64,000 nt of DNA from Escherichia coli (GTDB lineage Bacteria; Pseudomonadota; Gammaproteobacteria; Enterobacterales; Enterobacteriaceae): assembly GCF_051903065.1 (NCBI RefSeq), contig NZ_CP178438.1; one strand, written 5' to 3'. Position numbers and translations under genes: made by a program. Shown here piece after piece: positions 37,205 through 37,314 of this stretch. How positions within the stretch are numbered: position 1 is the first letter of the stretch; the number at the start of each line of letters is the position of its first letter. Under the pieces are notes generated by a model. That model did not search any database. It was given only the letters and a program-made list of their open reading frames with translations, and was not told where the DNA came from.

Positions 37205-37226
37205 TTTTCGCCTCGTGGTTCGGGTG

Positions 37227-37310
37227 TCGGATGCGACGCTGACGCGTCTTATCCGACCTACGGGGAGCGCATTTGTAGGCCGGATAAGGCGTTTACGCCG
37301 CATCCGGCAC
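37227..37310. repeat. REP pair between phnK and phnL
   Basis: gtcggatgcgacg...cttatccgacctac and gtaggccggataaggcg...cgcatccggca. Confidence 0.85.
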
Positions 37311-37314
37311 CGGC

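What the first reader, a model, noticed from the sequence alone, without database searches (positions are those of the whole stretch)
37205..37314. REP pair forms the only spacer between otherwise tightly packed phn genes
From phnG to phnP nearly every junction is an overlap or 1-bp gap, but phnK and phnL are separated by 110 bp holding two REPs. The ORF track fuses this region into a spurious 432 aa phnL extension. A REP at this spot could set a differential mRNA stability boundary inside the operon.
Basis: seen in the sequence. Interest (0 to 1): 0.3.

Follow-up and report, generated by a model that had tools for sequence, protein, structure and literature searches.

The report
REP pair between phnK and phnL
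The 110-base gap between two genes of the E. coli phosphonate-degradation operon is filled by an ordinary, already catalogued pair of REP repeats (a BIME), whose most likely effect is to favour expression of the upstream genes. The same gap has been filled repeatedly by such repeats in other bacteria.

Summary
The window is E. coli, with the phn operon on the minus strand. phnK ends at 37315 and phnL starts at 37204. The 110-bp spacer is identical to that of K-12 and holds a y-type and a z2-type REP in inverted orientation, which makes it a BIME. It is the only non-overlapping junction from phnF to phnP. The 432-aa ORF is a mechanical artefact.

The spacer has no U-tract terminator and no sense-strand promoter. 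As RNA it folds strongly (-61 kcal/mol, z = -6.2), starting right after the phnK stop codon.

Comparison adds context:
- 4841 of 5426 E. coli genomes carry this BIME.
- 546 carry an inverted BoxC pair at the same spot, and none has an empty junction.
- Close relatives show the ancestral 9-nt junction (stop, Shine-Dalgarno, ATG).
- Other Enterobacteriaceae and several Pseudomonas carry their own REPs exactly there.
- The phnD-phnE spacer shows the same BIME/BoxC dimorphism.
- The BIME varies about five-fold less than neighbouring third codon positions.

The most likely function, inferred from published REP work and not tested at this locus, is a decay barrier and partial Rho-dependent attenuator that favours phnC-K over phnL-P. 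The main rival is a passenger element sitting in the only permissive gap. The feature is a known kind at a known locus, so interest is low to moderate.

The parts
37205..37314 (-). phnK-phnL intercistronic spacer, 110 bp: a BIME made of one y REP and one z2 REP, transcribed as part of the phn mRNA
   Evidence: Identical to the spacer in K-12 MG1655.
37275..37309 (+). y-type REP, 35 nt, with GTAG on the + strand. In the mRNA it is read as the inverted copy, and it starts 6 nt after the phnK stop codon.
   Evidence: no mismatch to the REP consensus, with 0 matches expected by chance; inverted repeat I4. The length and GTAG rule are taken from PMC8266576. The hairpin alone folds at -22.4 kcal/mol.
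37225..37261 (-). z2-type REP, 37 nt, with GTAG on the - strand, which is the mRNA sense
   Evidence: inverted repeat I3; sequence. The hairpin alone folds at -21.3 kcal/mol. The 37-nt length matches the z2 type described in PMC8266576.
37262..37274 (.). 13-nt linker between the two GTAG ends; invariant in 10 diverse E. coli strains
37211..37214 (-). Shine-Dalgarno GAGG of phnL. It lies outside the REP hairpins and is conserved in both E. coli alleles and in related genera.
37315..38073 (-). phnK coding sequence (252 aa), with a TGA stop at 37317-37315
36524..37204 (-). phnL coding sequence (226 aa)
36524..37822 (-). Mechanical 432-aa ORF: the phnL reading frame happens to stay open through the BIME and into the 3' part of phnK. 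It is not a gene.
   Evidence: In the BoxC allele the frame closes 48 nt upstream of the phnL ATG, and in other species both the openness of the frame and the gap length modulo 3 vary.

Best explanation
The spacer is a y-z2 BIME: two REPs in inverted orientation, sitting between the phnK stop codon and the phnL Shine-Dalgarno sequence. It occupies the one junction of the phnG-P block where the genes are not translationally coupled. In relatives without an insert, that junction is only stop + GAGGC(C/G)AAC + ATG.

The BIME is transcribed inside the Pho-induced phnC-P mRNA. There it folds either into two hairpins of about -22 kcal/mol each or into one composite hairpin of -61 kcal/mol, beginning at the first base after the stop codon. 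It has no U-tract, so it is not an intrinsic terminator.

The most likely effect, inferred by analogy with REP325 and with malE-malF and hisJ-hisQ, has two parts. It blocks 3'-to-5' exonucleases, so mRNA segments ending at phnK outlive the phnL-P part. It also causes partial, probably Rho-dependent, attenuation. Together these would give more of the transporter and PhnGHIJK core than of PhnL-P. Because the REP starts 6 nt after the stop codon, it may also slightly lower PhnK translation.

Shown here: the identity of the element, its anatomy, its predicted fold, its conservation, and its distribution across the population and across species. Inferred: every step of the function.
For: Identity:
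- Perfect match to the REP consensus, with 0 matches expected by chance.
- GTAG, an imperfect palindrome and the AA/GC bulge are all present. Lengths of 35 and 37 nt fit the y and z2 types.
- Sub-threshold Rfam hits go only to the REP-derived family naRNA4.

Structure: -60.7 kcal/mol, z = -6.2. No terminator-like site and no sense-strand promoter.

Constraint among 10 diverse E. coli strains:
- 8 of 110 spacer sites vary, against 96 of 265 third codon positions in the flanks (Fisher p = 1e-9).
- Across the whole operon, 18-39% of third positions vary, against 7% of the spacer.

The junction is never empty in E. coli:
- The BIME is present in 4841 genomes and an inverted BoxC pair in 546.
- A synthetic empty-junction query found no single-piece match at E <= 1e-35. 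At E <= 1e-5 the same query found both flanks in 5361 genomes, and every listed match with both flanks was in two pieces.

Recurrence across 80 species:
- The phnK-phnL gap is positive in 76 of 80.
- 13 of 80 hold a strongly structured insert, against 0-3 loci at each of the other four junctions.
- These inserts include host-specific REPs in Enterobacter, Citrobacter, Pluralibacter, Kluyvera and Cedecea, and GTAG-type REPs in Pseudomonas and Stutzerimonas.

Literature:
- REP325 is a dual stabiliser and partial Rho-dependent terminator, and REP-separated tandem gene pairs show upstream-biased expression.
- REPs mark the 3' ends of Rho-dependent transcripts.
- A REP closer than 16 nt to a stop codon lowers translation.
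- RNA-seq assembled phnGHIJK and phnLMNOP sub-transcripts that break at this junction, and expression decreased along the operon.
Against: - There is no direct measurement at this locus.
- Under phosphate starvation the whole phnC-P was assembled as one transcript, so any attenuation is partial. The sub-transcripts came from weakly expressed samples.
- At least nine Enterobacterales species (eight of them in or near Enterobacteriaceae) keep the bare 7-10-nt junction, so a structured element is not required for the pathway.
- The substitutions seen in the stems are not compensatory and weaken the composite hairpin, from -61 to -46 kcal/mol.
- Conservation could come from gene conversion among REP copies. 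The other short phn spacers are equally conserved.
- Harris et al. stress that REP effects depend on context and vary widely.
Confidence: 0.55

Rival explanations
1. Passenger element. The REP pair has no role in phn expression. It sits here because the stop-to-Shine-Dalgarno gap is the only place in phnG-P where an insertion destroys no gene, and once inserted it cannot easily be removed precisely.
For: - All other junctions overlap, so this is the only permissive site.
- The inserts differ in number, type and family between species, and several relatives have none.
- A different repeat (BoxC) fills the same place in 10% of E. coli, and the phnD-phnE gap shows the same dimorphism. This fits the known instability of BIME and BoxC loci (PMC4666352).
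- No compensatory changes are seen.
Against: - The spacer varies about five-fold less than third codon positions.
- No E. coli genome out of about 5400 has lost it.
- The same junction was colonised independently by unrelated REP families in Enterobacteriaceae and Pseudomonas, while the short gaps estimated at phnJ-phnK in those Pseudomonas loci stayed free of repeats.
Confidence: 0.3
2. Translational brake on PhnK. The hairpin begins 0-6 nt after the TGA, so the terminating ribosome stalls and the mRNA is cleaved. tmRNA then rescues the ribosome and PhnK output falls. This could match the single PhnK seen bound to the PhnG2H2I2J2 core.
For: - The distance from the stop codon to the REP is 6 nt, and the composite stem starts at the first base after the TGA.
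- The published rule is that a REP closer than 16 nt to the stop codon lowers translation, as summarised in PMC12306157.
- In 10 of the 13 loci with a structured insert, the first REP starts 4-14 nt after the stop.
- A single PhnK binds the core complex (PMC9947105).
Against: - The closeness is forced by geometry, because the ancestral gap is only 9 nt.
- The primary paper (Liang et al. 2015) was not readable here.
- In the full complex PhnK and PhnL bind as a double dimer, which gives no obvious need for less PhnK.
- No data exist for this gene.
Confidence: 0.2
3. DNA-level role. As a y-z2 (BIME-2 type) element it acts as a DNA gyrase site that relieves supercoiling inside an 11-kb operon that is strongly induced.
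For: The y-z2 composition is shown. Gyrase binding and cleavage at BIME-2 elements is established knowledge (Espeli and Boccard 1997, cited in PMC8266576 and PMC2267715).
Against: - This is a single y-z2 unit, not the tandem array typical of strong gyrase sites.
- The BoxC allele and the REPs of other genera have no known link to gyrase.
- Nothing here tests it.
Confidence: 0.1
4. The 432-aa ORF is real, or a frameshift fuses PhnK to PhnL through the open spacer.
For: The phnL frame is open for 675 nt upstream of the ATG in this allele.
Against: - In the BoxC allele the frame closes 48 nt upstream of the ATG.
- In other species both the openness of the frame and the gap length modulo 3 vary.
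- The extension overlaps phnK out of frame.
- RefSeq annotates a 226-aa PhnL in all records inspected except the BoxC-allele strain SMN152SH1, whose phnL is annotated 42 nt longer at the 3' end.
- The Shine-Dalgarno sequence and ATG are conserved.
Confidence: 0.01

Closest known systems
REP325 between yjdM and yjdN (Harris et al. 2026, bioRxiv 10.64898/2026.03.23.713779)
   Same: It is a REP/BIME between two co-directional, co-transcribed genes. It lies in this same window (45222-45662), immediately upstream of the phn operon. It has been shown to stabilise the upstream mRNA and to attenuate read-through partly through Rho.
   Different: REP325 is a long tandem array, of which five copies matched the y-type consensus search in the window. 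The phnK-phnL element is a single y-z2 pair inside a 14-gene operon and has not been tested.
Intercistronic REPs of malE-malF and hisJ-hisQ (Higgins 1982; Newbury 1987)
   Same: These are REPs inside a polycistronic operon that protect the upstream mRNA from 3' exonucleases and so produce unequal expression of the genes.
   Different: They follow a periplasmic binding-protein gene. In the phn operon that description fits the phnD-phnE BIME rather than the phnK-phnL one. This comparison rests on established knowledge and on citations in PMC12306157 and PMC6061677.
BIME-associated transcription attenuation (Espeli, Moulin and Boccard 2001)
   Same: A BIME lacking a U-tract causes partial, Rho-linked termination.
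   Different: The effect depends on the BIME type and its context, and it has not been measured here.
REPs within 15 nt of a stop codon, e.g. nrdAB (Liang, Rudd and Deutscher 2015)
   Same: The REP begins 6 nt after the phnK stop codon.
   Different: Whether phnK was on their list could not be checked because the paper is not held. No tmRNA data exist for PhnK.
BoxC / PIT / TMECO repeats (Holder et al. 2015, PMC4666352)
   Same: The alternative allele at this junction is an inverted pair of these motifs. BoxC loci are known to be unusually variable between E. coli strains.
   Different: BoxC is an unrelated sequence family that can form a triplex or a hairpin. No effect on transcription was found for it in earlier tests.

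Membership tests
REP (E. coli palindromic unit) | A conserved GTAG tetranucleotide immediately 5' of the palindrome | tested here: met
   GTAG is at 37275-37278 on the + strand and at 37261-37258 on the - strand. The criterion comes from PMC8266576.
REP (E. coli palindromic unit) | An imperfect palindrome of 20-50 nt with the AA/GC mismatch bulge; y is 35 nt and z2 is 37 nt | tested here: met
   Inverted repeats I3 and I4 have 14-nt arms at 86% complementarity. The hairpins fold at -22.4 and -21.3 kcal/mol. The lengths are 35 and 37 nt. The z2 assignment rests on length and sequence pattern only.
REP (E. coli palindromic unit) | Many copies per genome, in extragenic positions | tested here: met
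   8 consensus matches in the 64-kb window against 0 expected. The 310-bp query, which contains the REPs, gave 6-50 places per genome across 5425 genomes. The element lies between annotated coding sequences.
BIME | Two REPs in inverse orientation separated by a short linker | tested here: met
   The y and z2 REPs sit on opposite strands with a 13-nt linker.
BIME-2 as a gyrase site | Binding and cleavage by DNA gyrase | not testable with these tools
   Only the y-z2 composition is shown here.
REP stabiliser/attenuator (functional class of REP325 and malE-malF) | Transcript 3' ends or decay intermediates at the REP, with upstream expression higher than downstream | tested here: inconclusive
   PMC3734233 reports the full operon as one transcript under phosphate starvation, expression decreasing along the operon, and weak phnGHIJK and phnLMNOP sub-transcripts. 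No base-resolution data were readable.
Intrinsic (Rho-independent) terminator | A G+C-rich hairpin followed by a U-tract | tested here: not met
   No terminator-like sites were found in 36900-37700. The sequence after the hairpin is ACCCGAACCACGAGG.
Translation-regulating REP (Liang et al. 2015) | REP within 15 nt of the upstream stop codon | tested here: met
   6 nt lie between the TGA and the REP. The functional consequence was not tested.
Rfam RF02564 naRNA4 | A score at or above the gathering threshold of 59.5 bits | tested here: not met
   The best hit scores 42.7 bits. The resemblance only reflects shared REP sequence.
BoxC / TMECO (the alternative allele, not present at this junction in the window) | The motif CCCTC[G/T]CCC - loop - GGGAGAGGG - loop - GGGTGAGGG | tested here: met
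   Two motifs in inverted orientation lie at L002 519-551 (+) and 444-478 (-). They match Table 1 of PMC4666352.

The most novel reading that the evidence does not exclude
The two intercistronic gaps of the phn operon (phnD-phnE and phnK-phnL) may be selected 'punctuation' sites that must hold some strongly folding palindromic module. Three observations point that way. In E. coli each gap is filled in essentially every genome by either a BIME or a BoxC module, and the two gaps vary independently. The phnK-phnL gap has been filled independently by host-specific REPs in several enterobacterial genera and in Pseudomonas. The module is much more conserved than synonymous sites. If this reading is right, unrelated repeat families are interchangeable parts that set the ratio of transporter plus PhnGHIJK core to PhnL-P.
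Probability: 0.2. Interest if true: 0.5.

Novelty: already known. Interest (0 to 1): 0.25.

Why it matters
On its own this is a routine REP/BIME at a locus whose sequence is identical to K-12, and the kind of function proposed for it is textbook. The wider pattern is more useful. The locus offers natural allele series: BIME or BoxC within E. coli, and the bare 9-nt junction in close relatives. The same holds at two sites in one inducible operon, right next to the experimentally studied REP325. That makes it a convenient system for testing whether intra-operon REPs really tune gene ratios or are only tolerated passengers.

Tried and rejected
Papers I could not read:
- Liang et al. 2015 (PMID 25891074 / PMC4427526).
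- Metcalf and Wanner 1993 (PMC204742) and Makino 1991 (PMC207835).

Because of this I could not confirm whether the original phn papers or the REP-translation paper mention this REP.

Searches that found nothing useful:
- Full-text searches for phnK/phnL together with REP returned nothing relevant.
- The RepRanger supplements hold no phn entries.
- The current RefSeq record of MG1655 lists no REP features, so its catalogue status rests on my own knowledge of EcoCyc.
- Rfam gave only sub-threshold hits to naRNA4.

Other items:
- My first BoxC search pattern had a spacing error and found nothing. A corrected regular expression found the motifs.
- I considered and rejected a real 432-aa protein or a frameshift fusion of PhnK to PhnL.
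- I considered and rejected an intrinsic terminator and an internal phnL promoter.
- A possible target-site duplication (CAGAAC-TAA against CCGAACCAC just 5' of the Shine-Dalgarno sequence) is too weak to claim.
- About 25 E. coli genomes that carry at least one flank but neither allele at 80% coverage or more were not resolved individually.

Full report
**What is there**

The window is E. coli. A 310-bp query centred on the finding matches strain ECNB21-M121 at 100%. That record's RefSeq annotation maps onto the window with an offset of 28104. The phn operon lies on the minus strand. phnL is 36524-37204 and phnK is 37315-38073, so the spacer 37205-37314 is 110 bp. K-12 MG1655 has the same 110-bp gap (NC_000913.3 4317896-4318005) with identical sequence.

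From phnF to phnP the junction gaps are 0, -4, -1, -8, -4, +110, -4, -1, -14 and +1. Upstream there are further gaps: phnC-phnD of 24 bp, phnD-phnE of 105 bp and phnE-phnF of 20 bp.

**Anatomy**

The spacer holds two REPs.
- The first is GTAGGCCGGATAAGGCGTTTACGCCGCATCCGGCA at 37275-37309, with GTAG on the + strand. It matches the REP consensus without a mismatch. The window has 8 such matches, against none in 100 shuffles.
- The second is GTAGGTCGGATAAGACGCGTCAGCGTCGCATCCGACA at 37261-37225, on the - strand.

Both have the GTAG, the imperfect palindrome and the AA/GC bulge that define E. coli REPs. Their lengths of 35 and 37 nt are those given for the y and z2 types (PMC8266576). The GTAG ends face each other across a 13-nt linker, so this is a single y-z2 BIME.

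On the mRNA strand each REP alone folds at about -22 kcal/mol. The whole spacer can fold into one composite hairpin of -60.7 kcal/mol (z = -6.2; 0 of 200 shuffles fold as well), starting at the first base after the phnK TGA. The phnL Shine-Dalgarno GAGG (37214-37211) lies outside the REPs.

No hairpin-plus-U-tract terminator and no sense-strand promoter-like site were found. Rfam gives only sub-threshold hits to naRNA4, a family derived from REP325 (42.7 bits against a threshold of 59.5). That simply restates that this is REP sequence.

**The 432-aa ORF**

It exists as a mechanical ORF because the phnL frame happens to be open through the BIME and into phnK. It is not a gene, for these reasons:
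- In the alternative E. coli allele the frame closes 48 nt upstream of the ATG.
- In other species both the openness of the frame and the gap length modulo 3 vary.
- RefSeq annotates a 226-aa PhnL in all records inspected except the BoxC-allele strain SMN152SH1, whose phnL is annotated 42 nt longer at the 3' end.

**E. coli population**

- 4841 of 5426 complete genomes carry the BIME allele.
- 546 carry a 176-bp spacer instead. This shares with the BIME allele only the stop codon and the last 18 nt before the phnL ATG.
- That insert is an inverted pair of BoxC (PIT/TMECO) motifs (motif table in PMC4666352). It folds at -95 kcal/mol.
- A synthetic empty-junction query found no single-piece match at E <= 1e-35. 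At E <= 1e-5 the same query found both flanks in 5361 genomes. Every one of the 39 listed matches with both flanks was in two pieces, with spans that fit one of the two alleles.

So no sequenced E. coli has an unoccupied junction.

**Constraint**

Among 10 diverse BIME-allele strains, 8 of 110 spacer sites vary, against 96 of 265 third codon positions in the 398-nt flanks (Fisher p = 1e-9). Against all flank positions the comparison is 113 of 796 (p = 0.05). Over the whole operon in 8 strains, 18-39% of third positions vary per gene, against 7% of the spacer. The short phnC-phnD and phnE-phnF spacers are similarly conserved. The stem substitutions are not compensatory and lower the composite fold from -61 to -46 kcal/mol.

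The element is therefore constrained or homogenised, but the data do not show selection on one particular pairing.

**Other species**

A PhnK-based scan of one genome per species returned 80 loci.
- The phnK-phnL gap is positive in 76 of 80 (median 22 nt). In contrast, phnI-J, J-K, L-M and M-N have medians of -4, -4, -4 and -1.
- Close relatives show the bare junction, for example Citrobacter sp. FP75 and Leclercia with TAA GAGGC(C/G)AAC ATG.
- In E. cloacae, E. asburiae, Pluralibacter, C. werkmanii, Kluyvera, Cedecea sulfonylureivorans and isolate RIT691, one to three REPs of the host's own type sit exactly between the stop codon and that Shine-Dalgarno sequence.
- Five Pseudomonas and Stutzerimonas loci carry REP-like hairpins of a different sequence family at the same junction; four of them have a GTAG motif.
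- Strongly structured inserts (dG/nt <= -0.33) occur at phnK-phnL in 13 of 80 loci, against 0, 1, 0 and 3 at the other four junctions.

This junction is therefore a recurrent landing place. The counts are confounded by phylogeny and by the fact that the other junctions overlap.

**The second spacer**

The phnD-phnE gap (42532-42636) also holds a REP pair. It is dimorphic in the same way: the BIME allele is in 3877 genomes and BoxC-type alleles of 60 or 125 bp are in 1506. The two sites vary independently. L092, L093 and L096 have BoxC at phnD-phnE and the BIME at phnK-phnL, while L098 has the reverse. A BoxC pair also sits at the 3' end of the operon (33534-33628).

**Function**

Nothing has been measured at this locus. 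The evidence comes from published work on REPs elsewhere and from one RNA-seq study.
- REPs between tandem genes stabilise the upstream mRNA and can attenuate transcription.
- REP325, five kilobases away in this same window, does both, partly through Rho.
- 146 REP-separated tandem pairs have a median log upstream/downstream expression ratio of 0.96, against -0.09 in controls, with wide scatter.
- REPs often mark the processed 3' ends of Rho-dependent transcripts.
- REPs closer than 16 nt to a stop codon lower translation of the upstream gene. Here the distance is 6 nt.
- In K-12 under phosphate starvation the whole phnC-P was assembled as one transcript, with expression decreasing along the operon. 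Weak phnGHIJK and phnLMNOP sub-transcripts both broke at this junction (PMC3734233).

I therefore rate a partial decay barrier and attenuator that favours phnC-K over phnL-P as the most likely role (0.55). The main rival is a tolerated passenger in the only permissive gap (0.3). A brake on PhnK translation (0.2) and a gyrase site (0.1) are possibilities that could coexist with either.

**Verdict**

The feature is an already known kind of element at a locus whose sequence has long been public. The added observations are of modest interest and make the locus a convenient test case. They are that the junction is never empty in E. coli, that BIME and BoxC are interchangeable at two sites, and that other genera have filled the same gap independently.

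Noticed in passing
window 42532-42636 (phnD-phnE spacer): This is a second REP pair inside the operon, with the GTAG ends facing outward. In E. coli it is dimorphic with BoxC-type inserts: the BIME allele is in 3877 genomes and BoxC-type alleles in 1506. It varies independently of the phnK-phnL allele. The K-12 pseudogene annotation of phnE1 extends over one of these REPs.
   Followed up: partly
L002 399-574; also L098 and L003: The alternative phnK-phnL allele, found in 546 E. coli genomes, is an inverted pair of BoxC/PIT/TMECO motifs in a 176-bp spacer. A 298-bp expanded form with three internal units occurs in L003.
   Followed up: yes
window 33534-33568 (-) and 33596-33628 (+): An inverted BoxC pair lies between yjdP and phnP, at the 3' end of the phn operon. 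K-12 has a single copy there, which is Holder et al. Table 1 no. 22.
   Followed up: partly
window 45222-45662: Five tandem y-type REP matches lie between yjdN and yjdM. This is REP325, recently shown to be a dual stabiliser and partial Rho-dependent terminator.
   Followed up: partly
window 41752-42531: phnE is intact here (259 aa). In K-12 it is a pseudogene that is 8 bp longer.
   Followed up: partly
L003 (QNRL01000011.1, labelled Pseudocitrobacter faecalis DSM 27453): Its phn locus is about 94% identical at the nucleotide level to E. coli, whereas Citrobacter loci are 80-85% identical. This suggests horizontal transfer or an Escherichia-like origin for that contig.
   Followed up: no
phnK stop codon, window 37315-37317, and loci L003-L029: All nine Enterobacteriaceae loci with an insert end phnK with TGA. 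Loci with the bare junction mostly use TAA or TAG; 2 of 9 use TGA. In addition, the bases just 5' of the Shine-Dalgarno sequence in E. coli, RIT691 and Pluralibacter resemble the phnK end of empty sites. Both patterns could be due to shared ancestry and remain unexplained.
   Followed up: no
K-12 U00096.2 4315582-4316062 (about window 36868-37348, + strand): Supplement 13 of PMC3734233 lists a 481-nt transcript on the opposite strand. It covers the 5' part of phnL and the whole BIME, and ends 34 nt into phnK.
   Followed up: no
L098 6576-7298 (strain SMN152SH1): phnL is annotated as 723 nt in this BoxC-allele strain, against 681 nt elsewhere. In the same strain phnE and yjcS are frameshifted.
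   Followed up: no
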